From Actinomycetota bacterium (lineage in GTDB: Bacteria > Actinomycetota > JAHEXW01 > JAGVPG01), in contig JAGVPG010000034.1 of the NCBI GenBank assembly GCA_020052375.1, positions 7,660-71,659 on the forward strand: 64,000 nucleotides of DNA, written 5' to 3'. This document shows positions 16,587 to 46,242 of this stretch, one piece after another. The notes beneath the pieces are model-generated. The model was not told the DNA's origin, made no database searches, and saw only the letters and a list, made by a program, of their open reading frames with translations. The first letter of the stretch is position 1. Each line of letters begins with the position of its first letter. The translations under genes were made by a program, and so were the position numbers.

Positions 16587-16661
16587 TGGTGGAGGTGGGG
16601 GGATTCGAACCCCCGACCTCTGCGATGCGAACGCAGCGCTCTCCCGCTGAGCTACACCCCC
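16587..16661 (-). tRNA. tRNA-Ala (anticodon CGC)
   Basis: The reverse complement folds by hand into a cloverleaf: acceptor GGGGGTG/CACCTCC with G3:U70, D-arm GCTC...GAGC, anticodon stem CTGCG/CGCAG, loop TTCGCAT and T-arm GGGGG-TTCGAAT-CCCCC. A CCA end is encoded. Confidence 0.8.
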
Positions 16662-17483: not shown

Positions 17484-17980
17484 AGTTCAAACAGTTCGCC
17501 CGCGACAACTGGCCGATTGTATTGGTGCTCATCGCGTTGCTGGTCGTGATCTCCAGAAGGTTCGACAAGGTCGGAGAGACACTTTCCATCGGTTTCAAAG
17601 CCATGTGGGATATCACAGCCATCCTTCTCCCCATCTTTCTATTCATCGGGTTCTTCTCCGCCTGGATGGACGAGAAACGCCTTGTCAGGATGTTCGGCGG
17701 AAAGGTCACTATCAGAGAGTTTTTCTACGCGTCGGTTGTCGGCACGTCCTGGGTCGGACCGCTTGCCAGCTTGATGCCGCTTTTAAAGACCATGCTCGAC
17801 AAAGGCGCAAGCACAGCGGTCGTCGCAACCATCCTGGCGACCTTTGCCATCAAAGTCCCCTTCATCCCGCTGGAGATCAAACTGCTCGGCTGGCAGTTCA
17901 CCGCCCTACATAACGGCTTGATGCTAGCCGCCGCCCCCCTCGTCGGCCTCATCATGCAACGCGTGTCAGTAAGAAAGTGA
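17480..17980 (+). CDS. Predicted permease, C-terminal half (paralogous to 16995-17483)
   Basis: GASTAVVATILATFAIKVPFIPLEIKLLG aligns with the preceding ORF. The start is called at ATG 17480 overlapping its stop (ATGA). Confidence 0.45.
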   Translation: MKFKQFARDNWPIVLVLIALLVVISRRFDKVGETLSIGFKAMWDITAILLPIFLFIGFFSAWMDEKRLVRMFGGKVTIREFFYASVVGTSWVGPLASLMPLLKTMLDKGASTAVVATILATFAIKVPFIPLEIKLLGWQFTALHNGLMLAAAPLVGLIMQRVSVRK

Positions 17981-18021: not shown

Positions 18022-19236
18022 TTAAATGAGTGGATTGGTTCCTTCATTAAGTATCTCTAAGTATCGGCTATACGCATAGTACCTGTTGCGTGATTTACCG
18101 GTTATTTCCTTTAAGATACCTATCTTCTCAAGTTTAGAAATAAGTGTTGTGGCCGTCTGTTTTGTAACGTCGAGTTTATGGGCGACCTCACTCACATTTA
18201 CTATCGGTGCTGTAAACAACCAGTCAAGAAGTATGATAGCGGAAGAACTGGAGATGCCGGAGTTCACTATTTTTTGTGTATCGGCTTTTTGGAGCGAGAT
18301 TATTTGCTTCGCGGAGGATGCTGCCTGGTCTGACACTTCAAGAATACCTTTCAGGAAGAAATCGACCCACTCTTCATAAGCGTCTTTATCTCGCACCTTA
18401 GACAGTAGATCGTAGTATTCCTGGCGGTTACGTTTCAGGTAGTAACTTAAGTAAAGAAGGGGTCGGTTTAGAATATCCTGCCAGCATAGATAGAAAGTGA
18501 TCAACAGTCTCCCTATACGTCCGTTACCGTCCAGGAATGGATGGATCGTCTCAAACTGATAATGTATTAGCGCGCATTTGACCAGTGGCGGCATCTTACT
18601 ATCTGAATGGACGAACTTCTCAAAGTCACTCATCGCGTCGATAACATCTACCGGAGGTGGCGGAACGAATGTCGCGTCGGCAAGCAGAGCTCCGCTAGGC
18701 CCGATCCAATTCTGGCTTTTTCTGAATTGGCCGGGGTCTTTATCGCTGCCGCGGACACCTGCCATTAAGACACCATGTATCTCACGGATCAGTCTAAGAG
18801 AAAACGGCAGATCCTGAAGTCTTTCTAAACCATGGTTCATCGCTTTTACATAGTTTATTACCTCTGCAACGTCATCGACACCTTTTATCGGTTTAGTGAG
18901 AGCTTCAAACTCAAGTACATCTATAAGTGATGATTGTGTTCCTTCTATTTGTGAGCTTAGTACCGCTTCTTTTTTTACAAACATAGCGACAAAAAGATCT
19001 GCATTGGGAAGGATGTAGGAAATACCGTCTAGTCTTGCAAGAGCTCGATCGGCATTCGATAAAAGAACAAGCATATCCTGGTCCAGAGCGATTTGCGGTA
19101 CCGGGGGTAAAGATTTTGGTATGAATGCCGAGTATCCGGCAGATTGCTGTACATAATAGCCACTTCGTTCGCCCAAGATGCCTCCTTCTATTCTAGTTAG
19201 TAAAGTAAAATTGATGATACTTGTATTTTGAGTCAT
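18022..19236 (-). CDS. Fic family protein (adenylyltransferase/AMPylator family) with a C-terminal winged-helix domain
   Basis: The canonical Fic motif HPFLDGNGRIGRLL is present. The C-terminal ~70 aa, ...VSEVAHKLDVTKQTATTLISKLEKIGILKE, is wHTH-like. Confidence 0.85.
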   Translation of the reverse strand: MTQNTSIINFTLLTRIEGGILGERSGYYVQQSAGYSAFIPKSLPPVPQIALDQDMLVLLSNADRALARLDGISYILPNADLFVAMFVKKEAVLSSQIEGTQSSLIDVLEFEALTKPIKGVDDVAEVINYVKAMNHGLERLQDLPFSLRLIREIHGVLMAGVRGSDKDPGQFRKSQNWIGPSGALLADATFVPPPPVDVIDAMSDFEKFVHSDSKMPPLVKCALIHYQFETIHPFLDGNGRIGRLLITFYLCWQDILNRPLLYLSYYLKRNRQEYYDLLSKVRDKDAYEEWVDFFLKGILEVSDQAASSAKQIISLQKADTQKIVNSGISSSSAIILLDWLFTAPIVNVSEVAHKLDVTKQTATTLISKLEKIGILKEITGKSRNRYYAYSRYLEILNEGTNPLI

Positions 19237-24456: not shown

Positions 24457-24666
24457 ATGATAAAAAACACTAGTGTTTGGAACGATATTGAACGCGAACA
24501 GATGAGAATGAGAACCGTGGACTACGCCTCAAACCTAAGGATCTTCGAATCCTTATGGAAAGAAGCAATAGCACTCCGCGCCCTTCCGCTTTCCGACCCC
24601 CTAGCCGGGATAGAAACAGATATCCAAATGGCCAAGATCCTCAACTCATGTTCCAAGACATCCTAG
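24457..24666 (+). CDS. Small hypothetical protein (69 aa) overlapping the start of the downstream nucleotidyltransferase-fold gene
   Basis: An ORF with a 19-nt overlap onto the 24648 start. No recognisable motif. Confidence 0.3.
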   Translation: MIKNTSVWNDIEREQMRMRTVDYASNLRIFESLWKEAIALRALPLSDPLAGIETDIQMAKILNSCSKTS

Positions 24667-25202
24667 CTCGTCTTGCCGGCATTCTTAAAAAAGCAGATAT
24701 TCCCTATATCGTTATTGGAGGCCAGGCGGTATTACTGTATGGTGAACCGAGGCTGACTGCCGACATAGATATAACGGTAGGACTCGGGATCGATGAGTTA
24801 TCGCGCTTGCTGACTGCAGGGGAGGAAAGCGGTTTGGTTCCGCTAGTTTCCGATATTGAGGCGTTTACCAAAGAAACCATGGTCGTTCCGTTAAAAGACA
24901 AAACGACCGACATCCGGATCGACTTCGTGTTGTCATTCACTACATACGAGGCCGCTGCTATAAAGAGGGCTCGAAAAGTAAAGATAGGTGGCATGGAGGT
25001 CAACTTTGCTTCACCCGAAGATGTTGTAATTCATAAGATATTCGCAGGACGTCCGAGAGACATAGAAGACTTACGCGGGATCTTGCTTAAACAAAAAGAT
25101 ATAGATGTCGGCTACATTGAGACTTCGCTCAAGGAGTTCGATCTCACATTCCCCGATAAGAGATTCTCGAAGACATTCAAAGATCTCATCAGCGAGCTAT
25201 AG
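24648..25202 (+). CDS. Nucleotidyltransferase-fold protein (minimal NTase-like; possible toxin/antitoxin-type component)
   Basis: IVIGGQAVLLYGEPRLTADIDITV fits the G[GS]-x9-13-D-x-[DE] pol-beta NTase motif. The start is called at ATG 24648; the track ORF begins at 24555 with a low-complexity leader. Confidence 0.5.
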   Translation: MFQDILARLAGILKKADIPYIVIGGQAVLLYGEPRLTADIDITVGLGIDELSRLLTAGEESGLVPLVSDIEAFTKETMVVPLKDKTTDIRIDFVLSFTTYEAAAIKRARKVKIGGMEVNFASPEDVVIHKIFAGRPRDIEDLRGILLKQKDIDVGYIETSLKEFDLTFPDKRFSKTFKDLISEL

Positions 25203-25403: not shown

Positions 25404-26552
25404 ATGAATATGCGTATTCATAAAACCCACGGCATTCTGCTCGGATGTGTATTCATCTTCTCGGTGCTGATCGGTTCCGGTTGCAGGTCGGACGTATCAA
25501 ATACAAGTCAGAATAAAGTGTCCACGAAATCAGAAACGGCTAATCCTAAAGATTTAAAACTTCAGAAGAAAGTGACGTTTAAGAACGGCGCCAGGCCGGA
25601 AGTCGCGGCGACGGGAGACAGGGTCTTTGTGGTATATCTGGACCCGTCCACACCGGATAGAACGTTCAATGTGAAGATCTACAACAAAGACATGACGCAG
25701 GAACGCACCACGAAAGTCATCGTTCCGACCGATCAGGAATATGGCAGCCCCACGGATATCCGGATCGTGAAAGACGGAAAATACCTTTTCACGTTCTACG
25801 AGACCGTGAAAGGTATGACGACCTTTTTGTTCGGGGCCAAATACTCGCTGGACGATGGTTTCGCCAGAGTCGCGTATACGGGACCGATTGCGCAAAGCAT
25901 GATGTTCAAGGTCACCAAGGCAGGGGATGAGAAACTGGATGACCCGGCGCCGATGGTCACGGGAGATCACGTATATGTGATGACACGATATAAAACATCA
26001 CTGGCCAAAGAAGGGGAAACAAAATATAAGATCCGCCAGTTCGATAAAGAACTGCAACCGGTTTCGGAGTTCGAACTGGACCTATCCGACTATATGGATG
26101 GTGAAGTAAGGCAGTCCAGCCTCATATACGTAAACGGCTACTTCTACATAGTTGGCCCGACTACCACGACTGGTACCGGCAATATCGTCGAGACCGTCGA
26201 ATGGACCGCCCCTTCGGATATCATGCTGATCAAACTGGACAAAGACTGGAAAGTCCGGGAAACAAAAGTCGTCGCCAACGAGGACGGATACACGGAAGGA
26301 TACGTCACAGGGCTTGTCCGGGACGGCAAGTATTTCTACATGACATATAACCGCGTCATCCTAGGGCAGGAATTCTCATCGATGATCAGGATCTTTGATA
26401 AGGACTGGAACCTGGTCAAACAAGAAAAAGTTGAAACCGGAGCCGGCGACCTAAGACCTTCCATCTTCGTGACTGATGACAAGCTCTACACCGGCAACGC
26501 CAACAAACAGTCATTAACCGCCGAGATCCTTGTTTATTATAAGGGTTTGTAG
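25404..26552 (+). CDS. Lipoprotein, function unknown (382 aa)
   Basis: A signal peptide with lipobox LIGSGC is present. The TAG stop lies inside the family B repeat (GTTTGTAGCAGCCGACC). Confidence 0.5.
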   Translation: MNMRIHKTHGILLGCVFIFSVLIGSGCRSDVSNTSQNKVSTKSETANPKDLKLQKKVTFKNGARPEVAATGDRVFVVYLDPSTPDRTFNVKIYNKDMTQERTTKVIVPTDQEYGSPTDIRIVKDGKYLFTFYETVKGMTTFLFGAKYSLDDGFARVAYTGPIAQSMMFKVTKAGDEKLDDPAPMVTGDHVYVMTRYKTSLAKEGETKYKIRQFDKELQPVSEFELDLSDYMDGEVRQSSLIYVNGYFYIVGPTTTTGTGNIVETVEWTAPSDIMLIKLDKDWKVRETKVVANEDGYTEGYVTGLVRDGKYFYMTYNRVILGQEFSSMIRIFDKDWNLVKQEKVETGAGDLRPSIFVTDDKLYTGNANKQSLTAEILVYYKGL

Positions 26553-26852
26553 CAGCCGACCTTCAGGTCGGCTCCCTAAAAGTGATGACTTTCAATAATA
26601 TTTTCTCCCCCTTCAAGGGGGAGAATCAAAGAGGGGGTGGCAAACACCGCAAACGTGCAGCTCAAAGGTGTCATCCTGAGGAAGGTCGCCGAAGGCGACC
26701 GACGAAGGACCTAAGAGAAAGCTTACGTGTCCGAATCAACCCAAGTTAAAGAGAATGTAGCGTTCCTTCGAATTACGGCTTGCCAAGTGCTTTCTTATAG
26801 CTGACTTGCTAAGTGTTACAAAACTGACATTTCTAGACCTGACCCCAAAATC

Positions 26853-27001
26853 ACTGGAACCTGATCAAACAAGAAAAAGCAGAAACCGGAGCCGGCGACC
26901 TAAGACCCTCTATTTTCGTAACAGACGACAAGCTCTACGCCGGCAACGCCAACAAACAGTCATTAACCGCCGAGATCCTCGTATATAACAAGATTTTGTA
27001 G
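26853..27001 (+). pseudogene. Diverged duplicate of the last ~50 codons of the 25404-26552 lipoprotein gene (gene fragment)
   Basis: Translation HWNLIKQEKAETGAGDLRPSIFVTDDKLYAGNANKQSLTAEILVYNKIL* matches DWNLVKQEKVETGAGDLRPSIFVTDDKLYTGNANKQSLTAEILVYYKGL*. The same composite repeat follows it. Confidence 0.6.
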
Positions 27002-27194
27002 CCGCCGACCTTCAGGTCGGCTCCCTAAAAGTGATGACTTTCAATAATATTTTCTCCCCCTTCAAGGGGGAGAATCAAAGAGGGGGTGGCAAATCCCCAT
27101 AACCACTAATAACCGCTTGCGAATAGCAAATTGCCTTGTATTCTGACCTGCCAAGTGTTACAGAACTGATAATTCAAGAAGTGACCTTGTTACT

Positions 27195-28988
27195 CTAGCG
27201 AAGTCTACCCGATGTCCATTCCCACAACCAGAGAACTCTCCTTGTGATGCTCCATTGAGTTTTGATCAATGTTCTAATATGGCTCATTAGTGATCCCTTA
27301 CCAATAGTGTTCAAAAGAACAGACGCTTTTAGCATCCCAGGTCTATCTTGAATTGTTTTAGATCTTAAGAACAACAACTCGATCTCGCTGTCACTTACAT
27401 GTTTTCCCGTATCCAGTCTTTTCTTAATGTCCCATCTTGAAAAGTTGATTAGACCGAGAATACTGTCGGTTTCAGCAAATGAGGACGTTAATGCAGAAGA
27501 ATCTAAAATAATTACTTCAGGTAGTTCAAAATACTTATCTATACCAGTAAGTTCTTGATAGACTCTTGTGATTTGTGCCCTCGCATGAGGATTAACAATA
27601 ACGCGGTCACTAAGATCAGACAGCTTTTGAAAGGCAAAAGTTTCTCGCCCAAAGCTAGCAATTCTGTTATATAGTGTAAATTTTCTAAGATCTCGACGAT
27701 AATGAAGAAAATCAATCAATGCTTGAACGCAGAAATCTAGATATGATGTATCTTTGCAGGTAGCAAGATTCAAGTTATCTATTTGCTTAAGGGTTTTTCT
27801 AAAATACCACCCAGCTCTAGTTATTCTAAAACCGAGCCAGTAATTACCTGCAATTCGATAGTTTCTGAGTAAAGCCATCTTTGGATTTGCGACCAGCGTC
27901 TTTTTCGAGTAGCCTAACGCTTTTTTATATTTACCCAAGTGGCTATAGCCATGATCAAGTAACTCATTTATCAGTAACTTGAAGTCTTGACTATTTGAAG
28001 AATTAAGAAAAGAGTTTGCAGTTTTTTCAAGCCTAATAACCTCATCGCCAATTCCCATTGACGAAAACATTTTCATTGTAGAAATGGTTTTTTGAGAATC
28101 GTGAATGTGAGGACATAGGATGCTCCACTTGTGTTTTTGACTTGGGATGTTCTTCTTGAAGTCAAAAGACCATTTATTTGCAAGATGTTCAAGAAAAGAA
28201 CCATCACTATGTATTTCGTCAACCCAAACATGGACTTTTGCATTACAATTTTGCAGTCCTCTTGTAATCGCGGAAGATATTGAGCTGTTACGACTGTGTT
28301 TCACCCAGATTACTGACAGGTGCTTTAAGTCCATTGTTAGATCTTGAAAAAAAGGATTTACATCAAAGTAGTCGCTACCACTATAGCCAAGAAAGACAAG
28401 AAACCTTACGTTCTTAAGTATTTTCTTAATTCTATCCATGCTTTCTTCTGGTAATCCTTTAGCAACATTGTTTATGGTTATTCCAAGACGAAGTAAAGAC
28501 CTTTGGTCATCCGAGTATTTACCATGGTAGTGGAATAGGTTTGTTGGTTCCGTAGTTATTTTACTTAGACTGAGAGGCTGCTGGTATGCTTTCTCGATGC
28601 ATGTGTCAAAGTTTGCAGTTATGTGATAGCCATTATCAATAATGTGCTGAGCAAAAAACTGGTGATAGTGATTTGGTACCGCGTTTCCGTAACTACTAAG
28701 TGTTTTTAAAGACTCAATACCGTTTACTGAAACGACGCTATTAAGGATAATCTCCAAGCGTGGATATTTTTTCCGGTTCCCCTCGCTATCGACCATTTTG
28801 GCATTTGAGAACCTGTTTAAAATTGTCTCCCATGTTTCAGGAAAACAGAAGTGCTCTATTGTACTGTGGGTTAGCTCAATACCAAGCGGTAAATTAGTTG
28901 GTGCTTCCTTTGAAATTCCAGCACCTGTCCAAAAACAAACCTCTTCAGGATTTCCGATACTTTCTACTAGATCATTGATATAAGTCAC
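27195..28988 (-). CDS. SIR2-like domain protein (SIR2_2/DUF4020-type N-terminal domain + ~350-aa helical C-terminal domain)
   Basis: FWTGAGIS (Rossmann Gly motif), ITANFD (the TTNYD-type motif), HYHG and VFLGYSGSDYFD are the conserved blocks of defence-type SIR2 domains. GTG start. The gene is AT-rich. Confidence 0.7.
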   Translation of the reverse strand: MTYINDLVESIGNPEEVCFWTGAGISKEAPTNLPLGIELTHSTIEHFCFPETWETILNRFSNAKMVDSEGNRKKYPRLEIILNSVVSVNGIESLKTLSSYGNAVPNHYHQFFAQHIIDNGYHITANFDTCIEKAYQQPLSLSKITTEPTNLFHYHGKYSDDQRSLLRLGITINNVAKGLPEESMDRIKKILKNVRFLVFLGYSGSDYFDVNPFFQDLTMDLKHLSVIWVKHSRNSSISSAITRGLQNCNAKVHVWVDEIHSDGSFLEHLANKWSFDFKKNIPSQKHKWSILCPHIHDSQKTISTMKMFSSMGIGDEVIRLEKTANSFLNSSNSQDFKLLINELLDHGYSHLGKYKKALGYSKKTLVANPKMALLRNYRIAGNYWLGFRITRAGWYFRKTLKQIDNLNLATCKDTSYLDFCVQALIDFLHYRRDLRKFTLYNRIASFGRETFAFQKLSDLSDRVIVNPHARAQITRVYQELTGIDKYFELPEVIILDSSALTSSFAETDSILGLINFSRWDIKKRLDTGKHVSDSEIELLFLRSKTIQDRPGMLKASVLLNTIGKGSLMSHIRTLIKTQWSITRRVLWLWEWTSGRLR

Positions 28989-29305
28989 ATCTCATTTCCA
29001 ATATTTCTTTACTGATTGATAAATCTACAGCTCATAGAGTCTGTAGAGTATTTACGCAGACTAGACTCACTATACTATGAAAATGTGATGAGGATTAGTT
29101 TGAAAGGCAACATAAAGGTCCCAGGAAAGGTTCTTTAAGATCGCCAAGGCATAGACAGCTGCTCATAACTAACTGTTAGGAGCAGCTTTTTCATTTATAA
29201 TCCCTTCATATGCTGTTCAAATCCACCCTTCCCATATACGTCATCATAAATTATTGGTATAGTCGAGAAAATAAAGATTTGTAAGAGCGTCTGCTATTTC
29301 TATTA

Positions 29306-32300
29306 ATGAGGTGGCACATCGTGGTAAAACCAAAAAATACTATTGGCAAAATTGCAGGACTTAATACCAACAATGAGAAAATAGCAAATGATGATCAGAT
29401 AGCCAAATTTGTACAAGAATACGGTGAAAGTATACGAGTTCAGGATCCAAAAGAAGCTTTTGTAGATCCACAGATTAAGAACCTAAGCCTTCAATTGGCA
29501 AATTCTATTAGCGAATCATCACAAGGAACAATCTTAGATATAGGTTGTGGTAAAGGTATTATTCTCCAACGACTAGCAGATATCGATGAATTCAAGACTC
29601 GAGAATGGTTCTATATTGGTGTCGACTATCCAGAAAAAACACAAGAAGTTTTAAGACTTGCTGCCGAGCTAGAAGTACATCGAAGAGTAGATGTGATTGC
29701 GCCAGATATCTTATATGCTGATTGGATCTCTTCAGAGGAAACAGAAAATCCGATTCTTGTTATTATTCGTAACGTTTTTCATGAACTAAATATTGAAGAG
29801 ACAGCAAAATGTATTTATACCCTAAGAACGAGACTTTCAAAAAAAGATACTATTTTGATTCAAGACCTACTTGTTTTTCCAATAGTGGAACGAGGTAATG
29901 TTTGCTGGGATGTTAATGCTTTTAAACAGATGCTGATCTCTTGTGGATTTAAGTGCACGATGGTCACTGAGCCAACCACTAGAGGAAATGGATGGTTTTC
30001 CGCATATGTAAAAGTTTCGAATCATTCTCGAATCAGTCTAAGTAATATCCACGCCGAGGTTCTTAATGCAAGACTTGCCCAGTTTAAGCGTTGGCAAGAC
30101 CTTGATACACTAATAGCAGGCAAGACAAAACCGAGGCTTGCACCAATTGCCCGTATCGACTTAGACCTCCAGCGAGCTTCTCTCCAAGCGCAACTAAACG
30201 AGGCAGGTGCATCCGGTGTTTTACCGCTTGATAAAAAAGATCAGGCACGCGTATTTTATCAAACATTTTCGAGCATTTTAGAAAACTTTAATGTCGAGAA
30301 CCTGTTAGGTAGAAAATCCGAACTGAATCTTTCCCCATATTTCCGTGATAGAGCACGACATCAAGATAGCCTCGAGCAGTTCTTATTAGACGATACAAAT
30401 ATTGCGATAATTCAAGGTCATGCTTTGATGGGAAAAAGTGTTCTAACTGCAGAAGTCCTAGCACGAAGGGCACATCGTCGTCAACCAATGATCATCGATG
30501 TCCAAGATACTTCAAGCGTTTGGAGCCTAATCGAAAGGTATTTAGGTGCTCTTGGATGCAACATATCATATGAGATCTTGTCTAAGCTAAAGAGTGCACG
30601 TTTATACGACGCAGTAGATCCACTGTCAGCACTTGTTTATAGAACTGCTTGTCACTCCGTCGTTGTATTTGATCATTTTGAGGCTTTACTAGATCCAGAG
30701 GGATGTCTAATTGATCCTGAGATTAAGACTTTTCTTATAATGCTAGCACGTGCTCCTAAAGCTAAAGTAATAATTACTACACGTCGACAGCCTGATTTTT
30801 GCTTCTTACCACCCGGAACAAAGATAAATGATAAACAAATGCCTGTTAGTAAACTCCCAAAGAACGAAAAGCACGTTATAAATATTTTAAATGACATTGT
30901 TGATTTAGCTTCTTTGGGTATTTCAGAGTACCCAGAAGGATTGATTACTGCTATAGGAGGACATCCATTCTTAGCCGTTACTGCAGCGCAGATAATAAAA
31001 AAAGAGGGTCCATCATCACTCGACGACAAGGAATTCCTTGAAATATTACGTTTGTTTCTCCGTGAAGAGTTGCTGAAAAGGATTGCTACAGATGAAGCAA
31101 TGGCGACAATAGATCTTGCTTCAAAAGTGAGAATACCAATACCTTTGAGAATGTTTGAAGTTCTAGCAGGTAAGCAAAGCGTCAAAGATGCAATAGAACT
31201 TGGACTTATTTACAGATCGTATGATTATTCCAGGGGTGATCTATTTACAGGAATTGGAATACTTCGCGACTCCATGGATGTGAATTATAGGGGATTATCG
31301 TCAGACTCAACTACAGATACGGCAGTCGACGCAAGGCTGAGACAGTTACATGAAAGAATTGCTAACTATTACGAAAAACTCTACAGACAAGATCATGATC
31401 CTCGTTGGATTCGCGAGTTGCACTATCACACCGTTGCTGCTGGTAATATGGAGAGAATTACGCAGTTCGGAATTCTCTACAAGAGCGAGCTTTTTGCAGC
31501 AGGTGAGTACTGGTTCCGCTTAAAGAAATATGACGCCGCTTTTGATATATTCAAAGCAGCAAAGGACTTAGATTTTACATCTTATAGGTTGGATATGCGC
31601 ATCGCCGCTTGTATGATGCGTATTGGTCGGATTGCGGAAGGAGAGAAACTATACGAAGAGCTTATCAAATCCCACCCCACATTCAACGGCATAAAAAGCT
31701 CATTTATTGATAGTCTGCTTTTTATTAAGAGATATTCAGACGCTTATAAAAAGTTAGAGGAATATCAATACAAAATGAGGGACAATACATATGTTGCTAA
31801 TCAATACGGTAGAGCATATTTTGGATTGCGGATGTATCGTAGAGCGATAGAAGCTTTTGACTATAAATGTAAAAATGACCCGGATGAATTTGGCTACTGG
31901 TGGCTAGCTCGCGCGTACCAATATGTTGGTGAACAAAATATGGTTGGAAGTGTTCTTGAAAAAGGTCTTATCATATTTAGTCAGAGTGAGCGTCTTAGTT
32001 TGAGCTACGCTGCGCATCTTTTACGACTTAATACAGCAAAAGATCGCAAAAAGACTATAATGCTTCTCCGCAGCCTTCATACTCTTTCACCTTTAAACGG
32101 AGGTATTCTGCAACAGCTATGTAAGGCATTATGTTTAGATGGAAATAGTTACGAGGCGAGGGGTTTAGCTGCGCAGTTCAATGACAAAATAACACCTGAA
32201 CGTTATAGAATACCAATGTGGATTGAGGTTTATATTGCTGAGGGTAAATATGAAGATGCTCTATCGCTGCTTCGTGAAATCCCAAATGACGATGAGCATT

Positions 32301-32578
32301 TAGTAGGCTTAGTTAAAAAAACATACCTCCGCTGGTCAAAATCTCGTGATAGCGATAAAGACCGGCAAGATATTGCACATCGTGGATTAGGCATACCGAT
32401 AAGTGCTGACCTTAACAACAACATTCCAATCTTAGTTTTGTCACTACGCCTTGCGCATCTCTCCAACAATGAAAAGGCTGCTAAAGACATAGCTGCTGAG
32501 ATTAAAAAAATAAACCCAGCATTTGCGCAGACTATACAGGAAGTTGAAACTCCGTACTTTGAAGATGAACCATACTAA
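29306..32578 (+). CDS. Three-domain protein: class I SAM-dependent methyltransferase (N) + STAND/NB-ARC NTPase (middle) + TPR repeats (C)
   Basis: ILDIGCGKGIIL is MTase motif I. GHALMGKS is Walker A, VVVFDHFE is Walker B, KVIITTRRQ is the hhhTTR motif and GGHPFLAVTAA is GxP-like. The C-terminal ~400 aa holds repeated Tyr/Ala-rich TPR-like helices. It is AT-rich and divergent from the SIR2 gene. Confidence 0.65.
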   Translation: MRWHIVVKPKNTIGKIAGLNTNNEKIANDDQIAKFVQEYGESIRVQDPKEAFVDPQIKNLSLQLANSISESSQGTILDIGCGKGIILQRLADIDEFKTREWFYIGVDYPEKTQEVLRLAAELEVHRRVDVIAPDILYADWISSEETENPILVIIRNVFHELNIEETAKCIYTLRTRLSKKDTILIQDLLVFPIVERGNVCWDVNAFKQMLISCGFKCTMVTEPTTRGNGWFSAYVKVSNHSRISLSNIHAEVLNARLAQFKRWQDLDTLIAGKTKPRLAPIARIDLDLQRASLQAQLNEAGASGVLPLDKKDQARVFYQTFSSILENFNVENLLGRKSELNLSPYFRDRARHQDSLEQFLLDDTNIAIIQGHALMGKSVLTAEVLARRAHRRQPMIIDVQDTSSVWSLIERYLGALGCNISYEILSKLKSARLYDAVDPLSALVYRTACHSVVVFDHFEALLDPEGCLIDPEIKTFLIMLARAPKAKVIITTRRQPDFCFLPPGTKINDKQMPVSKLPKNEKHVINILNDIVDLASLGISEYPEGLITAIGGHPFLAVTAAQIIKKEGPSSLDDKEFLEILRLFLREELLKRIATDEAMATIDLASKVRIPIPLRMFEVLAGKQSVKDAIELGLIYRSYDYSRGDLFTGIGILRDSMDVNYRGLSSDSTTDTAVDARLRQLHERIANYYEKLYRQDHDPRWIRELHYHTVAAGNMERITQFGILYKSELFAAGEYWFRLKKYDAAFDIFKAAKDLDFTSYRLDMRIAACMMRIGRIAEGEKLYEELIKSHPTFNGIKSSFIDSLLFIKRYSDAYKKLEEYQYKMRDNTYVANQYGRAYFGLRMYRRAIEAFDYKCKNDPDEFGYWWLARAYQYVGEQNMVGSVLEKGLIIFSQSERLSLSYAAHLLRLNTAKDRKKTIMLLRSLHTLSPLNGGILQQLCKALCLDGNSYEARGLAAQFNDKITPERYRIPMWIEVYIAEGKYEDALSLLREIPNDDEHLVGLVKKTYLRWSKSRDSDKDRQDIAHRGLGIPISADLNNNIPILVLSLRLAHLSNNEKAAKDIAAEIKKINPAFAQTIQEVETPYFEDEPY

Positions 32579-32775: not shown

Positions 32776-34230
32776 TTAGTTATCGCTCGAGCAGTCGATT
32801 ATTGATACTGGACTTGGAATCTTGCCCATGAACCAGATGTCATCAGGAAACACATAAGCCTTACAGCCAATATTGAGCTCATCAGTCCAGTGAAATTTCT
32901 GGTTATTAATAAAATTACTGTCCAAGTTTATCTTACCGTCAGAAGACCGAAACCATGCTTGCCAGACTAGTGATGAACAATAGAGTGTCCTACTCGTATT
33001 TTTATTCAACGCTTGCCTAACAGCTATTCTATCCGTCAGAATCTGTTCAATTGTCAGTAGTGGGAAGTCTTTGTACTCAGAGAAAGGATATGGGCTAGAC
33101 ATCAGATTATTATATGCATAACCAACAGATTTTCCCCTAGCTTCATCAGTTGTATTAACGCGAAGCAGAGCCCATTCTTCTTCTAAACCTCTGTTTTGAA
33201 GAGATCTCATAACAGGATTACCATTTCTATAGTCTGCTTCTATAATGTAATGAAGCCCATCGATCTCGCCGAAATATAAGGCACAGTGAGTCCAATAGAC
33301 ATCTGCCAGTAAATGCAGGAGACTAACGATAGTTTTATCTCCTCCTCTCATTATGAGGATATCTCCTTTTTTCAGCTGAGAGTAAGGCCACTCATTTTGC
33401 CTATACATGCCAAAATCTACTCGATAATCACCGGATTCGCTCGATATACTAACAGGTTGAGTTTGCGGGGTACTTGATTTCCAGCCAGAGTTTTGCACTA
33501 TACTGATCGAATAAGAGCCCTCAGTAACATTTGTGAATTCGAAATAACCGTTTGCATCTGTACAAGTTGTTTCACTGAGTGGCCCGAGGTCTTCCTGTTG
33601 CGCTAGTTCTATAGTCCAACCAGGTAAAGTCTTCTCACTAATATTTTCATCCCGTACGCCGTTTGTATTCTTATCTTCAAACACATAACCAGATACTTTG
33701 CTTTTATTAGTCCATATAATTTCTTCAAATGTGTAATGAGTCCAACCTTCATTTGCAGAAGGGACTGGGAATGCATGAGTCTCTGTCCCATCAGGTCCTT
33801 CAAGTATTAGATCGATTGAGTAGTATTCAATGTTACGGCTAAAACTCCAGAAATCAGCTGGATCTGAAAAATAGCTTAATGGTGGATTTAGACCGCCACT
33901 TCCGCCACCCCAACCGACACCATTTAGAAAAACCCAAGTGTATATGCCTTTATTGGTTGAAACTGCCCAAGAGGCTTTAATGTCTTTACCCAAAGCACTT
34001 GTTCGTCTCTTGATTCCGTAGTCTATGTTACGTAGCGAATAATTAGAGTAAACGTCTGCTCTTTGTTGGACCTCAACATAATCAAGATAGAAGCTACTGC
34101 GGGGCTCCTCCGCGGCTCTAACCTTAGAGCTCTGTCCGTTTATGCATAGAAGTATAGTGCATAAAAAAACTAAGAGACCCGCTAATCTAATTGTTTTCAA
34201 CGTCAGCGAAACCACCTCGCAAATTATCAA
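32776..34230 (-). CDS. Secreted protein with an SdrD B-like domain and a C-terminal putative permuted papain-fold (YiiX/DUF830-like) cysteine peptidase domain
   Basis: N-terminal TM or signal. GYVFEDKNTNGVRDE...GWTIEL...TDANGYFEF...GSYSI is the SdrD-B pattern. WTHCALYFGE and LYCSSLVWQAW resemble the YiiX H/C motifs. Confidence 0.45.
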   Translation of the reverse strand: MIICEVVSLTLKTIRLAGLLVFLCTILLCINGQSSKVRAAEEPRSSFYLDYVEVQQRADVYSNYSLRNIDYGIKRRTSALGKDIKASWAVSTNKGIYTWVFLNGVGWGGGSGGLNPPLSYFSDPADFWSFSRNIEYYSIDLILEGPDGTETHAFPVPSANEGWTHYTFEEIIWTNKSKVSGYVFEDKNTNGVRDENISEKTLPGWTIELAQQEDLGPLSETTCTDANGYFEFTNVTEGSYSISIVQNSGWKSSTPQTQPVSISSESGDYRVDFGMYRQNEWPYSQLKKGDILIMRGGDKTIVSLLHLLADVYWTHCALYFGEIDGLHYIIEADYRNGNPVMRSLQNRGLEEEWALLRVNTTDEARGKSVGYAYNNLMSSPYPFSEYKDFPLLTIEQILTDRIAVRQALNKNTSRTLYCSSLVWQAWFRSSDGKINLDSNFINNQKFHWTDELNIGCKAYVFPDDIWFMGKIPSPVSIIDCSSDN

Positions 34231-37605: not shown

Positions 37606-38775
37606 TTGAAGAATGACGAAAGCCTTTTTCATTGGGGCATTCCTGGATGGTGTTTCATAGTTCTATGTGTAAGCCTTTTTGTCGCTGACTATTTTGTTTC
37701 TCCATCAAGTTTCTCGTCCAAGGCAATTGTAGGATTCCTTCAGAATGCACAACCTAATAGAAGTGGTACCATTCTCAGCATTGAAGCTGTTGTAGCGGCT
37801 GGAGGAGTAGGTATTCCAATCGGATTTGTACTCTATCAAATATATTACTGTTGTTTTTGGAAGTTCTTCTTTAGACCAGAACGATGGTTTACGCAAGATG
37901 TGTTTTCTCCAGAGTCTGCTGAGAAACTAGCACTACAACATGGGATGAAACGGGAAGATGACACTAGAATTAGAAGCAGCTTTGATTTTTTAGCACGAAT
38001 TCTCTTTAATATTGCCAAACTATCTCGGCTAATAACGTGGAATGATAGGTGGTTTAGGGATGAAAGGAAGAAAGAACAACAAGGCTCTGCTTTGTTGTTC
38101 GATCTCGAATCAATAAAAAGCAGACTAACGGAAATTGAAATCTCAAAGAGGGTATGGACATTTCTACGAACAAAGTTGGAGATGGAGTTGTATAAGAAAG
38201 ATAAAGCTCGTGTGGAGGAAAGCTTTAAGTCTCTAACAAGAAAATTTCATACTCTTGGAACAACTACTTTCGCTTTTGCTGGAGCTTTTCTTGTTCTTTG
38301 GCTAACTAAAGCCGGAGATATTACATATCTATATATCCAAATATACAGGCAAAGCAACATAACAGACAGTATCGTTATTACCTTAGTACCATTAGGAATC
38401 ATGTTTCTCGAGTGGAAAACACTTTTACGGGTAGGACACTACATCTATGAAAAACAAGCAACAACAGCTATTACAGGTGTCTTCATAATAACGGGAATCT
38501 TCTTAGCACTCATTGAGATGACATCTCTTATGGTGCTGACAGAATTTGCCGGCTCTTTGTTTATATTAATTGTGTTCTTATTTGTGTCTGTGTGCATATA
38601 TATACTTAGAAATAATCGACGAGACATTAGAATACGGATGAATACACTAATGCTAAGAGTTTTTGAGGATATAGATCAAAGAGAATCACAAACAAGTGAG
38701 AAACCACCATTATTAGTGGATCAAATGATTCAAGAGAATTCTAGTCAGAGGGCATACTTTAATGAGTATTACTAG
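37606..38775 (+). CDS. Hypothetical polytopic membrane protein (389 aa)
   Basis: Multiple hydrophobic helices with a central coiled-coil-like charged region. No assignable motif. Confidence 0.4.
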   Translation: MKNDESLFHWGIPGWCFIVLCVSLFVADYFVSPSSFSSKAIVGFLQNAQPNRSGTILSIEAVVAAGGVGIPIGFVLYQIYYCCFWKFFFRPERWFTQDVFSPESAEKLALQHGMKREDDTRIRSSFDFLARILFNIAKLSRLITWNDRWFRDERKKEQQGSALLFDLESIKSRLTEIEISKRVWTFLRTKLEMELYKKDKARVEESFKSLTRKFHTLGTTTFAFAGAFLVLWLTKAGDITYLYIQIYRQSNITDSIVITLVPLGIMFLEWKTLLRVGHYIYEKQATTAITGVFIITGIFLALIEMTSLMVLTEFAGSLFILIVFLFVSVCIYILRNNRRDIRIRMNTLMLRVFEDIDQRESQTSEKPPLLVDQMIQENSSQRAYFNEYY

Positions 38776-39053: not shown

Positions 39054-40390
39054 CTTTCGCACATTTGTAAGGACGGTGGCCTCTTTCTGGTTTAATTGGA
39101 AGTGAGAAGACAACCTTTTAGACCAGAGAGGAGAACCACCGCTATGAACAAGTCTACACCAAAAGATCTCGGTAAGGTGATAGAGATCGACGAGGGGAAG
39201 ATCCGCGACCACTTAGGCGAGATCGTCCGGGACACCGTCGAGGAGACATTGAACGGCATGCTCGACGCCGAAGCCGACCGGCTTTGCCAGGCACAACGCT
39301 ACGAGAGAAGCGCAGACAGAACCGACACAAGAGCTGGTCACTACCAAAGAAAGCTTCATACCAAAGCCGGAGAGGTCACTTTGAACATGCCCAAGCTGAG
39401 GAAGCAAACATTCGAGACGGCGATCATTGAACGCTACCGCCGGCGGGAGACCTCGGTCGAGGAAGCCTTGATTGAGATGTATTTGGCCGGTGTTTCCGTC
39501 AGACGAGTCGAGGACATCACAGAAGCCCTCTGGGGTACACGAGTCAGCCCGGGGACGGTATCCAACTTAAACAAGAAGGTCTACTCCCGCATCGAGGAGT
39601 GGAGAAACCAGCCGATAGTCGGCACTCATCCTTATGTCTACCTCGACGGCATCGCCCTCAAGCGTAGCTGGGGTGGCGAGGTGAAGAACGTATCTATCCT
39701 GGTCGCCGTCGGGGTCGCATCCGACGGCTTCCGTGAGATCCTCGGTATTGTCGAGGGCGCCAAGGAGGACAAAGCCGGCTGGACTTCTTTCTTAAGACAC
39801 CTGAAAGAACGCGGCCTCTCCGGTGTCAGGCTGGTCATCTCAGACGCATGTTTAGGTCTTACCGAATCTTTGGCCGACTTCTATCCCGAAGCTAAATGGC
39901 AGAGATGCACCGTCCACTTCTACAGAAACGTCTTTTCTGTAGTCCCGTCCGGCAAGGTGAGAGAAGTCGCCTGCATGCTGAAAGCGATCCACGCCTCCGA
40001 AGACAAAGACGCAGCCCGTGAGAAAGCCGAGGCTGTGATCAGAAAACTTAAGGAAGCGAAGCTCTCTGCCGCCGCCAAGAAAGTAGAAGAGGCCATCGAA
40101 GAAACGCTCACCTACTATGACTTCCCCGCATCTCACTGGGTCCGCATCAGAACAAACAACCCGCTGGAAAGGTTGCTCCGTGAGATCAGAAGAAGGACCA
40201 GAGTCGTCGGATCCTTCCCCGACGGACACTCTGCCCTGATGCTGTCGGCCGCACGCTTAAGACACGTTGCTGGAACTAAATGGGGAACCAGGAGATATCT
40301 AGTAATGGAACTGCTCGCGGACTACGAAGTCGCCGCGGGAGTCGGTGCATAAACGATGCTGGAAGGAGGCCGCCAGATAAAAGTGCGAAA
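39054..40390 (+). mobile_element. IS256-family insertion sequence (~1.34 kb)
   Basis: Imperfect terminal inverted repeats: left CTTTCGCACATTTGTAAGG at 39054 and right ...CCAGATAAAAGTGCGAAAG ending at 40390 (9 terminal nt are perfect complements). It encloses a single IS256/mutator-type transposase ORF. Confidence 0.7.
39144..40352 (+). CDS. IS256 family transposase
   Basis: MNKSTPKDLGKVIEIDEGKIRDHLGEIVRDTVEETLNGMLDAEADRLCQAQRYERS...YLDGIALK...LVAVGVASDGFREILG...QRCTVHFYRN are IS256 (mutator) transposase hallmarks. A DDE region is present. Confidence 0.88.
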   Translation: MNKSTPKDLGKVIEIDEGKIRDHLGEIVRDTVEETLNGMLDAEADRLCQAQRYERSADRTDTRAGHYQRKLHTKAGEVTLNMPKLRKQTFETAIIERYRRRETSVEEALIEMYLAGVSVRRVEDITEALWGTRVSPGTVSNLNKKVYSRIEEWRNQPIVGTHPYVYLDGIALKRSWGGEVKNVSILVAVGVASDGFREILGIVEGAKEDKAGWTSFLRHLKERGLSGVRLVISDACLGLTESLADFYPEAKWQRCTVHFYRNVFSVVPSGKVREVACMLKAIHASEDKDAAREKAEAVIRKLKEAKLSAAAKKVEEAIEETLTYYDFPASHWVRIRTNNPLERLLREIRRRTRVVGSFPDGHSALMLSAARLRHVAGTKWGTRRYLVMELLADYEVAAGVGA

Positions 40391-45048: not shown

Positions 45049-46242
45049 GTGCGCGATCTGTATGTTCGATCGGTCAATAATATTATAAAAAAGAGGCTCC
45101 AAGAGCCTCGTAGATTCATCCAGGTTCTATACGGTCCGAGACAAGTAGGAAAGACTACCGCTATTCTTCAGGTGCTTGAGGGGATCAGGATAGCGCATTC
45201 ATATGCTTCCGCCGACAAACCACTCCTGCAAGATGTCGACTGGGTACAAGATGAATGGCAAAAAGCTCGCGGTCTATTAGCGAAGAATAAACAAGCTGTT
45301 CTTGTGCTCGATGAGATCCAAAAAGTGCCGGAATGGTCGGAAGTAGTGAAACGGCTATGGGATGAAGATACAAGACAAGGCAGACTACTTCATGTTGTAT
45401 TGCTTGGTTCGTCTCCGTTTCTCATCCAAAAGGGTTTAACGGAGAGTTTGGCCGGCCGTTTTGAGGTCATACGCATTCCGCATTGGTCGTTTGTCGAGTG
45501 CCGGGACTATTTCGGTTGGGACGCAGATGTTTATATTTATTATGGCGGGTATCCGGGTGCTGCGCCTCTAATAGAGGACCGCTCACGCTGGGTCAGGTAT
45601 ATAGAGGATGCTTTAATCGAGACGACCGTATCGCGGGACATCTTGCTGTTGACGCGCATCGATAAACCGGCGTTGTTAAGGCGCTTATTCTATCTGGCTT
45701 GCCTGTACTCCGGACAGATTGTGACATATGAGAGTATGCTCGGGCAGCTTCACGAAAAAGGAAACACGACAACCCTAGCACACTATCTAGATCTCCTAGA
45801 CGGTGTCGGTTTTGTGAGAGGTCTTCAAAAATACTCTGGTTCGATAATCCGCCAACGCGCTTCCAGCCCCAAATTGCAGGTCTATAACAACGCTTTGATG
45901 ACTTCTCAATCCGATACAAGCTTTGATGAAGCGCGAGAGGACAAACCGTACTGGGGGAGGCTTGTTGAATCAGCAGTTGGAGCACATCTTCTAAGGGGTG
46001 TTATGGAACACAGATTCGAACTTTTTTATTGGCGCGAGAAGAGCAACGAGGTCGATTTTGTTATCCGTCATAGAAAAGGGGTAACGGCGGTTGAAGTTAA
46101 AACAGGATCGAGTGAACGTGCTCGACGCGGTTTCTCGGCATTCAGCCGGAACTATAAGGCAGATAAAATGATTATTATAGGACCGGAAGGTATACCGGTC
46201 GAAGACTTCCTCTTGGCCGAACCGGACGCTTTTATGAGCTAG
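45049..46242 (+). CDS. AAA-superfamily ATPase with DUF4143 C-terminal domain (COG1373-like)
   Basis: Walker A GPRQVGKTT and Walker B VLVLDEIQ are present. The C-terminal ...WREKSNEVDFVI... region is DUF4143-like. The stop TAG is embedded in a family B repeat. Confidence 0.7.
   Translation: MRDLYVRSVNNIIKKRLQEPRRFIQVLYGPRQVGKTTAILQVLEGIRIAHSYASADKPLLQDVDWVQDEWQKARGLLAKNKQAVLVLDEIQKVPEWSEVVKRLWDEDTRQGRLLHVVLLGSSPFLIQKGLTESLAGRFEVIRIPHWSFVECRDYFGWDADVYIYYGGYPGAAPLIEDRSRWVRYIEDALIETTVSRDILLLTRIDKPALLRRLFYLACLYSGQIVTYESMLGQLHEKGNTTTLAHYLDLLDGVGFVRGLQKYSGSIIRQRASSPKLQVYNNALMTSQSDTSFDEAREDKPYWGRLVESAVGAHLLRGVMEHRFELFYWREKSNEVDFVIRHRKGVTAVEVKTGSSERARRGFSAFSRNYKADKMIIIGPEGIPVEDFLLAEPDAFMS

What the first reader, a model, noticed from the sequence alone, without database searches (positions are those of the whole stretch)
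27195..32578. Divergent SIR2-like protein + methyltransferase-STAND(NB-ARC)-TPR protein: candidate two-gene defence/signalling module
The 597-aa minus-strand protein carries the full motif set of defence-type SIR2 (NADase) domains: GAGIS, ITANFD, HG and LGYSGSD. It shares a 317-bp AT-rich promoter region with a 1090-aa protein. In that protein a class I SAM-methyltransferase domain (ILDIGCGKG) is fused to an NB-ARC-like STAND NTPase (Walker A GHALMGKS, Walker B VVVFDHFE, TTR motif KVIITTRR, GxP-like GGHPFLAV) and a long C-terminal TPR array. STAND NTPases with TPR sensors and N-terminal effectors are the architecture of Avs-type antiviral proteins, and SIR2 is a common NAD-depleting effector. 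Here the SIR2 domain sits on a separate protein and the STAND carries a methyltransferase in the effector position. I do not recognise that combination from described systems. Both genes are much more AT-rich than the surrounding core and sit in an island with IS, Fic and repeat elements.
Basis: partly seen in the sequence, partly recalled or inferred. Interest (0 to 1): 0.82.

Follow-up and report, generated by a model that had tools for sequence, protein, structure and literature searches.

The report
Two unrelated defence genes, back-to-back
The two genes are real and their domains are as described, but they are not a pair: each is a stand-alone candidate anti-phage gene lying in a defence island, and the larger one belongs to a rare, undescribed family of NLR-like sensor proteins that carry a methyltransferase where a killing domain normally sits.

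Summary
Observation confirmed. ORFs 27195-28988(-) (597 aa) and 29306-32578(+) (1090 aa) exist, are 317 bp apart, carry every quoted motif and are 38-40% GC against about 53% in the core.

Domain calls hold at family and structure level.

The two-gene-module reading fails its own test. None of 27 loci with a STAND homolog holds a SIR2-like gene. None of 86 loci with a SIR2-like homolog holds the STAND gene. Neither family has any conserved neighbour.

Both families lie among known defence genes elsewhere (BREX, Gabija, Wadjet, AbiE, Dodola, CBASS, DRT, Druantia). The window island itself holds SoFic and PDC-S01.

The methyltransferase module is rare: 201 relatives among 1.84 billion representatives. 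It is nearly always N-terminal in STAND or conflict-type proteins, sometimes with TIR, PNP, CHAT or HD-CE added. No PADLOC Avs model matches, and I found no description in the literature.

Verdict: two independent single-gene candidate defence systems. MTase-STAND-TPR is a new variant of the Avs/NLR kind. Its mechanism is inferred, not shown.

The parts
27195..28988 (-). 597-aa SIR2 + TPR-like protein, a stand-alone candidate NADase defence gene
28164..28988 (-). SIR2 domain (about aa 1-275), with GAGIS, TANFD, HxHG and GYSGSD motifs
27198..28103 (-). All-alpha TPR-like C-terminal domain (about aa 296-597), a putative sensor or autoinhibitory domain
28989..29305 (.). 317-bp intergenic region between the divergent genes (GC 0.353)
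   Evidence: Sequence and GC. The scan found no consensus promoter here.
29306..32578 (+). 1090-aa methyltransferase-STAND-TPR protein, a stand-alone NLR/Avs-like candidate defence gene
   Evidence: ORF and translation. The family has about 48 full-length homologs at 24-44% identity.
29306..30196 (+). N-terminal module (aa 1-297): class I SAM-methyltransferase core (beta1-beta7, aa 73-237) with N-terminal helical lid and C-terminal helical linker
30323..31405 (+). STAND P-loop NTPase with helical/winged-helix region (about aa 340-700): Walker A at aa 371-378, Walker B at 452-459, KVIITTR at 487-493, xxHPxLA at 551-558
   Evidence: Invariant residues are. Family Pfam hits are AAA_22, AAA_16, nSTAND3, ATPase_2 and NACHT. 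The sub-profile's best PDB hit is the STAND-TPR sensor PH0952 (6mfv) at E 0.022, aligned from Walker A through the ViiTtR motif.
31448..32575 (+). C-terminal TPR array (about aa 715-1090), a putative ligand sensor
   Evidence: Pfam finds TPR_19 and TPR_14 and 40 of 41 homologs hit TPR_19. The profile hits TPR and PPR structures at E down to 6e-14.
18022..19236 (-). Context: SoFic-type Fic protein, a known single-gene defence system, in the same island
   Evidence: PADLOC SoFic at E 2.5e-126 over the full length. Pfam finds Fic_N, Fic and SoFic-like_C.
45049..46242 (+). Context: AAA_14/DUF4143 ATPase matching the PADLOC candidate system PDC-S01
   Evidence: PADLOC PDC-S01 at E 1.8e-171. Pfam.
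16587..16661 (-). Context: tRNA-Ala(CGC) just left of the point (about 18 kb) where GC falls from ~0.55 to ~0.43
   Evidence: ARAGORN and composition profile.
39096..40352 (+). Context: IS256/Mutator-family transposase inside the island
   Evidence: Pfam Transposase_mut at E 1e-109.

Best explanation
The region holds two independent, horizontally mobile, single-gene candidate anti-phage systems. They lie back-to-back in a low-GC defence island beside tRNA-Ala.

(1) The 597-aa protein is a self-contained SIR2 NADase.
- Shown: it has a defence-type SIR2 fold with the catalytic Asn/Asp/His set conserved, joined to a TPR-like superhelix of the MalT-domain-III / RRNPP-receptor kind.
- Inferred: the helical domain holds the enzyme off until it binds a phage-derived ligand. 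The SIR2 domain then hydrolyses NAD+ and aborts the infection, as in DSR, ThsA and Avs5.

(2) The 1090-aa protein is an NLR/Avs-like STAND.
- Shown: it has an N-terminal class I SAM-methyltransferase with an intact SAM-binding motif and a strongly conserved putative substrate pocket, a P-loop STAND NTPase, and a C-terminal TPR array.
- Inferred: the TPR array binds a phage protein and the NTPase drives oligomerisation. The clustered N-terminal methyltransferase is the output enzyme and modifies a conserved target. The fold resembles small-molecule methyltransferases most, so a metabolite or nucleotide is a possible target, but nothing here tests that.

The SIR2 gene is not the STAND's effector.
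For: Independence:
- 0 of 27 STAND loci and 0 of 86 SIR2-like loci hold the other gene, by tblastn and by profile HMM. About 12 of the full-length STAND loci have at least 6.5 kb on both sides.
- Clustering of neighbouring ORFs finds no conserved partner for either family.

Defence context of STAND homologs:
- Neighbours match DolB, BrxC/PglZ/BrxL, GajA/GajB, JetD, AbiEii, Cap2 E1-E2, mad2/mad3 and NsnB (gene tables).

Defence context of SIR2-like homologs:
- Neighbours match Cap2 E1-E2, DRT reverse transcriptases, a type II REase, DruF, ShosA and PDC candidates.
- Toxin-antitoxin genes and ubiquitin-like system domains (BubE, ThiF, Multi_ubiq) also lie nearby.

The window island itself holds SoFic (E 2.5e-126) and PDC-S01 (E 1.8e-171).

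Effector-type fusions on the same scaffold:
- TIR+MTase+STAND+TPR (P0010) and PNP+MTase+STAND+TPR (P0045, P0046).
- MTase+CHAT+NB-ARC/AAA_16+TPR (P0116), MTase+NACHT, MTase+NACHT+FGE-sulfatase and MTase+HD-CE.

The methyltransferase module is rare and specific. It has 201 relatives among 1.84 billion representatives, mostly N-terminal in proteins of about 1050-1100 aa.

Structures: for the methyltransferase; for SIR2 + TPR. Catalytic and SAM-binding residues are invariant.

Phyletic spread is patchy. Only 25 loci were found among one genome each of 185,579 species, spanning Proteobacteria, Nitrospirota, Acidobacteriota, Bacteroidota, Hydrogenedentes and Desulfobacterota.
Against: - No experiment exists. 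The defence role rests on guilt by association and on architecture.
- A methyltransferase is not a known abortive-infection effector.
- In the TIR, PNP and CHAT variants the methyltransferase is retained next to a classical effector. That would also fit a non-effector role for it (regulatory, SAM-sensing or adaptor).
- Neither family was found on IMG/VR viral contigs.
- The NTPase has only weak sequence similarity to solved STANDs (best E 0.022). No structure was predicted for that part.
- Non-co-occurrence cannot exclude a lineage-specific functional link in this one genome.
Confidence: 0.6

Rival explanations
1. One reading: a two-gene module. The TPR-STAND protein senses infection and activates the separately encoded SIR2 NADase in trans. 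The two genes are co-regulated from the shared divergent intergenic region.
For: The genes are adjacent and divergent, 317 bp apart, with similar low GC of 0.38-0.40. SIR2 is a common STAND-linked effector, as in Avs5 (paper PMC12931631).
Against: The two genes never co-occur in 27 + 86 related loci, by tblastn and by HMM. Neither family has a conserved neighbour. The SIR2 protein has its own sensor-like TPR domain. Both families occur as solitary genes in unrelated defence islands. No promoter signal was found in the intergenic region.
Confidence: 0.06
2. The STAND protein is a defence sensor, but its methyltransferase domain is not the killing output. The domain could be a SAM-binding regulatory or guard domain, for example one sensing SAM depletion by phage SAM lyases. 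It could instead be an oligomerisation adaptor. It could also methylate the captured phage protein directly to neutralise it, without cell death.
For: The methyltransferase is kept when a classical effector is added. TIR or PNP sits N-terminal to it, and CHAT sits between it and the NTPase. The fold is closest to small-molecule methyltransferases, and no toxin family appears among the hits.
Against: Most family members have no other enzymatic domain, so something must serve as output. Beyond the SAM motif, a set of non-SAM residues is invariant (Y39, Q46, D54, R155, N156, H159, E160, Q186, D187, E195, W201). This holds even across the MTase-NACHT-FGE-sulfatase proteins. It argues for catalysis on one conserved substrate and against mere SAM binding.
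Confidence: 0.22
3. Neither gene is a defence gene. The STAND-TPR protein would be a MalT- or AfsR-like signalling ATPase controlling a methylation step in metabolism. The SIR2 protein would be a protein deacylase with a TPR adaptor.
For: STAND-TPR proteins include regulators such as MalT. MalT domain III is the second-best structural match of the SIR2 protein's C-terminal domain, and PH0952 is the best sequence match of the NTPase. The methyltransferase resembles biosynthetic small-molecule methyltransferases. The window island also carries surface-protein genes.
Against: Homologs have no conserved metabolic or regulatory neighbours. Instead they sit repeatedly next to many different known defence systems. 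TIR, PNP, CHAT and HD-CE fusions occur on the same scaffold. Distribution is rare and patchy. The best SIR2 structural neighbours are defence NADases, ahead of the deacylases.
Confidence: 0.1

Closest known systems
Avs5 / AVAST type 5 (SIR2-nSTAND3-TPR/Sel1 single-protein system; PDB 9nc9, 9jap)
   Different: Here the N-terminal enzyme is a class I SAM-methyltransferase, not SIR2. The NTPase profile does not detect Avs5 chains even at E<=10. No PADLOC Avs model matches any of the 41 members. The SIR2 protein in the window has no NTPase at all.
Avs1-4 and bNACHT bacterial NLR-like proteins
   Same: They are single large proteins in defence islands with an N-terminal output domain, a STAND NTPase and a C-terminal repeat sensor. 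Variants of this family carry typical NLR effectors: TIR, PNP and CHAT.
   Different: I found no methyltransferase described among their effector domains. There is no HMM match. The target they recognise is unknown here.
DSR1/DSR2 (defence-associated sirtuins) and ThsA
   Different: It is much smaller than the DSR proteins (which I recall as about 1000-1200 aa). Its C-terminal domain is TPR-like, of the MalT-domain-III / RRNPP kind, not SLOG (ThsA) or HEAT-like (DSR2). There is no PADLOC hit for the window protein, and only weak SIR2-APAZ hits in 3 of 34 relatives.
PH0952 (PDB 6mfv) / MalT-type STAND-TPR sensors
   Same: PH0952 is the best sequence-profile match of the NTPase region, with Walker A, Walker B and the ViiTtR motif aligned. 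Both have a TPR sensor C-terminal to the NTPase.
   Different: The match is marginal (E 0.022). Those proteins have no methyltransferase domain.
MADS mad2 (PADLOC PDLC04134)
   Same: It is the only PADLOC model hit. 22 of 41 family members match through the methyltransferase domain.
   Different: The match is weak (best E 8e-10) and covers only aa 28-167 against profile positions 250-376 of 492. It is a generic class I methyltransferase similarity. No other mad genes accompany the gene in the window.

Membership tests
Avs (antiviral STAND, types 1-5) | STAND P-loop NTPase core (Walker A, Walker B, conserved Arg after the Walker B strand, helical/winged-helix region) | tested here: met
   G371, G376, K377, D456, E459, K487, T491, R493 and P554 are conserved in 41 homologs. 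Family Pfam hits are AAA_22, AAA_16, nSTAND3, ATPase_2 and NACHT. 6mfv aligns at E 0.022.
Avs (antiviral STAND, types 1-5) | C-terminal TPR-like sensor repeats | tested here: met
   40 of 41 members hit TPR_19. The profile hits TPR and PPR structures at E down to 6e-14.
Avs (antiviral STAND, types 1-5) | N-terminal effector of a known toxic class (nuclease, SIR2, TIR, protease, etc.) | tested here: not met
   The N-terminal domain is a class I SAM-methyltransferase. TIR, PNP or CHAT occur only in a few variants: P0010, P0045/46 and P0116.
Avs (antiviral STAND, types 1-5) | Sequence match to the Avs1-5 models | tested here: not met
   PADLOC v2 gives no Avs hit for the window protein or for any of 41 family members. 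The solved Avs3, Avs4 and Avs5 chains are not detected by the NTPase profile at E<=10. Newer DefenseFinder models could not be queried.
Avs (antiviral STAND, types 1-5) | Demonstrated anti-phage activity triggered by a conserved phage protein | not testable with these tools
   This needs phage challenge and pull-down experiments.
NB-ARC clade of STAND | Significant match to the NB-ARC model (PF00931) | tested here: inconclusive
   There is no NB-ARC hit for the window protein, and NB-ARC is not among the 25 most-matched Pfam families listed for the 41 members. Only sub-threshold NB-ARC hits appear, in the differently built relatives P0116 and P0142.
Class I SAM-dependent methyltransferase | Seven-stranded Rossmann-like fold with a beta6-beta7 hairpin | tested here: met
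Class I SAM-dependent methyltransferase | Motif I (D/E)xGxGxG after beta1 and an acidic residue at the end of beta2 | tested here: met
   D78, G80, G82 and G84 are invariant, and D107 is at least 90% conserved.
Class I SAM-dependent methyltransferase | SAM binding and methyl transfer to a defined substrate | not testable with these tools
   This needs biochemistry. The substrate is unknown.
Defence SIR2 NADases (ThsA, DSR, SIR2-HerA, SIR2-APAZ, Avs5 SIR2) | SIR2 fold with conserved NAD-site Asn/Asp and His | tested here: met
Thoeris ThsA | C-terminal SLOG domain and an adjacent ThsB (TIR) gene | tested here: not met
   The C-terminal domain is all-alpha and TPR-like. There is no conserved neighbour and no PADLOC hit.
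SIR2-HerA (Nezha) / SIR2-APAZ-pAgo (SPARSA) | Obligate adjacent HerA or short pAgo gene | tested here: not met
   There is no conserved neighbour across 86 loci. The window neighbours are unrelated. Only weak SIR2-APAZ hits appear in 3 of 34 members and a weak pAgo hit in 1 of 34.
DSR1/DSR2 | Match to the DSR models, with a large C-terminal sensor domain | tested here: not met
   No PADLOC Dsr hit was found for 34 members. The protein is 597 aa with a TPR-like C-terminal domain.
   0 of 27 and 0 of 86 loci hold both genes. There are no conserved neighbours.

The most novel reading that the evidence does not exclude
The methyltransferase-STAND-TPR family, together with its MTase-NACHT, MTase-NACHT-FGE-sulfatase, MTase-CHAT-NB-ARC and MTase-HD-CE relatives, would be a previously unrecognised class of bacterial NLR-like immune receptors. 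Their output would be SAM-dependent methylation of a conserved cellular small molecule or nucleotide, or of the captured phage protein. That is an effector chemistry not yet known for any STAND/NLR immune protein.
Probability: 0.3. Interest if true: 0.8.

Novelty: new variant of a known kind. Interest (0 to 1): 0.55.

Why it matters
Known bacterial NLR-like (Avs, bNACHT) proteins kill or arrest the infected cell with nucleases, NADases, proteases or pore-formers. A conserved family with a catalytically intact-looking methyltransferase in the output position would add a new effector chemistry to NLR-type immunity. It would also raise a concrete, testable question: what is methylated, and how does that stop a phage?

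The family is small and well defined, at about 200 clusters at 50% identity. Natural variants that add TIR, PNP or CHAT offer ready-made comparisons.

The SIR2 + TPR protein is a compact (597 aa) sensor-plus-NADase. It could be a tractable minimal model for ligand-gated SIR2 activation.

The result also warns against reading adjacency inside a defence island as functional coupling.

Tried and rejected
- Single-sequence searches of both proteins against PDB sequences found nothing useful. NCBIfam gave only noise-level hits.
- PADLOC gave nothing for the SIR2 protein and only a generic methyltransferase hit (mad2) for the STAND protein.
- IMG/VR viral contigs held no relative of either family.
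- Literature searches for a methyltransferase in STAND, Avs or bNACHT effector positions, for 'SIR2-TPR' and for MTase/NACHT/FGE-sulfatase returned nothing relevant. Two Aravind-lab surveys of STAND conflict systems do not mention such a fusion. The Gao 2022 Avs paper is not held in the library, so I could not check its effector list.
- I looked for a partner gene that might explain the methyltransferase through its ~500-aa stand-alone relatives. Contexts L114 and L115 are the same locus in related genomes, and L116 differs. No conserved partner emerged, so I dropped that lead.
- I tried to identify the source organism. The cluster look-up gave no names, and the window's genome is not among the GTDB species representatives that matched.
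- The sigma-70 promoter and terminator scan was no better than shuffles.
Full report
**1. The observation**

ORFs 27195-28988(-) (597 aa, GTG start) and 29306-32578(+) (1090 aa) exist as stated. They are divergent and separated by 317 bp.

The two genes and the spacer are 35-40% GC, against about 53-54% in the flanking core. They lie in a low-GC stretch of roughly 18-47 kb that begins just right of a tRNA-Ala gene. This stretch contains a Fic gene, an IS256-type transposase and repeated hairpin elements.

On the single sequences, Pfam evidence is weak. SIR2_2 scores 22.1 bits against a cut-off of 24.5. Methyltransf_31 scores 23.6 against 27. Only the TPR hits pass, and no NTPase model hits. 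I therefore tested the domain calls at family and structure level.

**2. The 1090-aa protein**

The large database holds about 48 full-length homologs at 24-44% identity. In an alignment of 41 of them, several sets of residues are invariant or nearly so:
- the SAM motif I residues D78, G80, G82 and G84
- the Walker A residues G371, G376 and K377
- the Walker B region D456 and E459
- K487, T491 and R493 (the 'KVIITTR' motif) and P554

Scanning all 41 members against Pfam gave Methyltransf_23 in 34, TPR_19 in 40, AAA_22 in 13, AAA_16 in 12, nSTAND3 in 11, ATPase_2 in 9 and NACHT in 5.

A profile of the NTPase region alone finds the STAND-TPR sensor PH0952 (6mfv) as its best solved relative. Walker A, Walker B and the ViiTtR motif are aligned, but only at E 0.022. 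The solved Avs chains are not detected.

So methyltransferase + STAND + TPR is confirmed. 'NB-ARC-like' is more specific than the evidence allows.

**3. The 597-aa protein**

It has 49 homologs, nearly all 560-670 aa. G22, A23, G24, S26, N126, D128, H153, H155, G201, Y202, S203 and D206 are invariant or nearly so. The family profile hits archaeal and bacterial sirtuins at E about 1e-5 and SIR2-APAZ at 2e-3. Its C-terminal part hits TPR proteins.

The AF2 model (pLDDT 88.3) has two parts.

The protein therefore carries its own sensor-like domain. No PADLOC model matches it. Among 34 relatives, only three give weak SIR2-APAZ hits and one a weak pAgo hit.

**4. Is it a two-gene module?**

I collected three sets of loci:
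- two contexts of STAND homologs by exact look-up
- 25 STAND-related loci from one genome per species of GTDB, with up to 10 kb flanks
- six contexts of SIR2-like homologs and 80 from metagenomes

tblastn with both window proteins and hmmsearch with both family profiles on all ORFs of at least 70 aa give the same answer. None of 27 STAND loci has a SIR2-like gene. None of 86 SIR2-like loci has a STAND gene. Only the window has both.

All-against-all clustering of ORFs within 5 kb finds no neighbour family conserved around either gene, beyond redundancy between near-identical contigs.

The adjacency here is best explained by co-residence in a defence island.

**5. Are they defence genes?**

Shown by association only.
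- Neighbours of STAND homologs (128 proteins, 6 kb either side) match Dodola DolB, BREX BrxC/PglZ/BrxL, Gabija GajA/GajB, Wadjet JetD, AbiEii, CBASS Cap2, MADS mad2/mad3 and Menshen NsnB.
- Neighbours of SIR2-like homologs (137 proteins) match CBASS Cap2, several DRT reverse transcriptases, a type II restriction enzyme, Druantia DruF, Shosta ShosA and several PADLOC candidate systems. Toxin-antitoxin pairs and ubiquitin-like system domains (BubE, ThiF, Multi_ubiq) also lie nearby.
- In the window, the Fic gene is a full-length SoFic (E 2.5e-126) and the AAA_14/DUF4143 gene is PDC-S01 (E 1.8e-171). A DUF6036/AbiEii-like nucleotidyltransferase lies at 24555-25202.

The STAND family is rare and patchy. 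Only 25 loci were found among 185,579 species genomes, scattered over many phyla.

**6. The methyltransferase module**

phmmer of aa 1-297 against 1.84 billion representatives finds only 201 relatives at E<=1e-3, of which 67 are at E<=1e-30. Among the best hits the module is nearly always at the N-terminus of proteins of about 1040-1100 aa, that is, the same architecture.

Other architectures carry the same module at 28-43% identity:
- TIR+MTase+STAND+TPR (P0010)
- PNP+MTase+STAND(+TPR) (P0045, P0046)
- MTase+NACHT+FGE-sulfatase (P0049, P0051)
- MTase+NACHT (P0050, P0142, P0178)
- MTase+CHAT+AAA_16/NB-ARC+TPR (P0116)
- MTase+HD-CE (P0197)
- a group of ~500-aa proteins with an uncharacterised C-terminal domain

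Beyond the SAM motif, a set of non-SAM residues is invariant even across the NACHT-FGE-sulfatase relatives: Y39, Q46, D54, R155, N156, H159, E160, Q186, D187, E195 and W201. This suggests an active enzyme with one conserved substrate.

**7. Mechanism**

My best reading is as follows, with each step marked.
- Shown: the domain architecture and the conservation of catalytic motifs.
- Inferred by analogy with Avs and NLR proteins: the TPR array binds a phage-derived ligand, the NTPase oligomerises, and the N-terminal enzyme is activated by clustering.
- Inferred: the methyltransferase is the output enzyme.

The weak point is that a methyltransferase has no precedent as an abortive effector. It also persists alongside TIR, PNP and CHAT in the variants, which fits a regulatory or guard role equally well. 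I give that role 0.22 as a rival.

For the SIR2 protein, ligand-gated NAD+ hydrolysis is the natural inference from its closest structural relatives.

**8. Comparison with known systems and novelty**

The STAND protein works like an Avs, and Avs5 is the nearest analogue. It fails two membership tests: there is no match to any Avs model, and it has no known toxic effector. I therefore file it as a new variant of the Avs/NLR kind, not as a member.

The SIR2 + TPR protein is DSR- or ThsA-like in logic but belongs to none of the tested families.

I found no description of either architecture in PADLOC v2 or in the searchable literature. Current DefenseFinder models and the Gao 2022 paper could not be checked.

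**9. Verdict**

- Interest is moderate (0.55). The proposed module is not real. The methyltransferase-STAND family is a genuine, small, undescribed and experimentally tractable variant whose output chemistry is an open question.

Noticed in passing
window 18022-19236 (-): The Fic protein (Fic_N, Fic, HTH_13/SoFic-like_C) is a full-length match to the known defence system SoFic (PADLOC E 2.5e-126). In Seleniivibrio woodruffii (L001:11204-12388) a Fic gene abuts the STAND homolog tail-to-tail.
   Followed up: partly
window 45049-46242 (+): The AAA_14 + DUF4143 ATPase is a full-length match to the PADLOC candidate system PDC-S01 (E 1.8e-171). It lies near the right-hand end of the low-GC island.
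   Followed up: partly
window 5325, 21725, 25273, 26603, 27052 (23 nt each): A GC-rich palindromic hairpin, TTCTCCCCCTTGAAGGGGGAGAA or close variants, occurs at five sites against 0 expected by chance. Four sit within about 100 bp of the end of an ORF or in an intergenic stretch (5325, 25273, 26603, 27052) and one lies inside the 3' end of an ORF (21725). It looks like a REP-like or terminator element of this genome.
   Followed up: partly
window 26404-26644 and 26853-27093: A 241-nt direct repeat at 93% identity. The first copy overlaps the 3' end of the 382-aa ORF 25404-26552, and each copy includes one of the hairpins. It suggests a local duplication in the 643-bp gap downstream of the SIR2-like gene.
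   Followed up: no
window 21780-24209 (-), 25404-26552 (+), 24555-25202 (+): The 809-aa and 382-aa proteins have no Pfam or PADLOC hit. They flank a DUF6036/DUF2204/AbiEii-like nucleotidyltransferase. They may be further uncharacterised island cargo.
   Followed up: no
window 16995-17483 (+) and 17423-17980 (+): Two overlapping ORFs both match roughly the first 135 positions of the 294-position ArsP_1 permease model. This may be a tandemly duplicated or disrupted permease gene. They lie between tRNA-Ala and the SoFic gene.
   Followed up: no
window 32776-34230 (-), 34561-37554 (+), 37606-38775 (+): These are low-GC genes for large surface or adhesin-like proteins. The first two carry SdrD_B, CarboxypepD_reg and SpaA; the 34561-37554 protein also carries DUF11, Big_1 and PA14, and the 32776-34230 protein a weak (sub-threshold) Peptidase_C92 hit. 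A BA5345-family protein follows. They lie immediately downstream of the STAND gene and are not conserved next to its homologs.
   Followed up: partly
window 39096-40352 (+): An IS256/Mutator-family transposase (E 1e-109) with GC 0.54. It stands out as a high-GC insertion in the low-GC island.
   Followed up: no
P0183, P0187, P0172 and about 30 others; loci L114-L116: A group of ~500-aa proteins carries the same rare methyltransferase module, including the VVVRNVFHEL motif, plus an uncharacterised ~230-aa C-terminal domain. One locus lies beside McrBC and a TCAD9-domain gene. Another has an HD gene upstream and a gene with a weak NTP_transf_3 hit downstream.
   Followed up: partly
P0116 (1367 aa), P0197 (769 aa), P0049/P0051: The methyltransferase module is also fused to CHAT + NB-ARC/AAA_16 + TPR, to HD-CE, and to NACHT + FGE-sulfatase. 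It behaves as a mobile N-terminal module of conflict-type proteins.
   Followed up: partly
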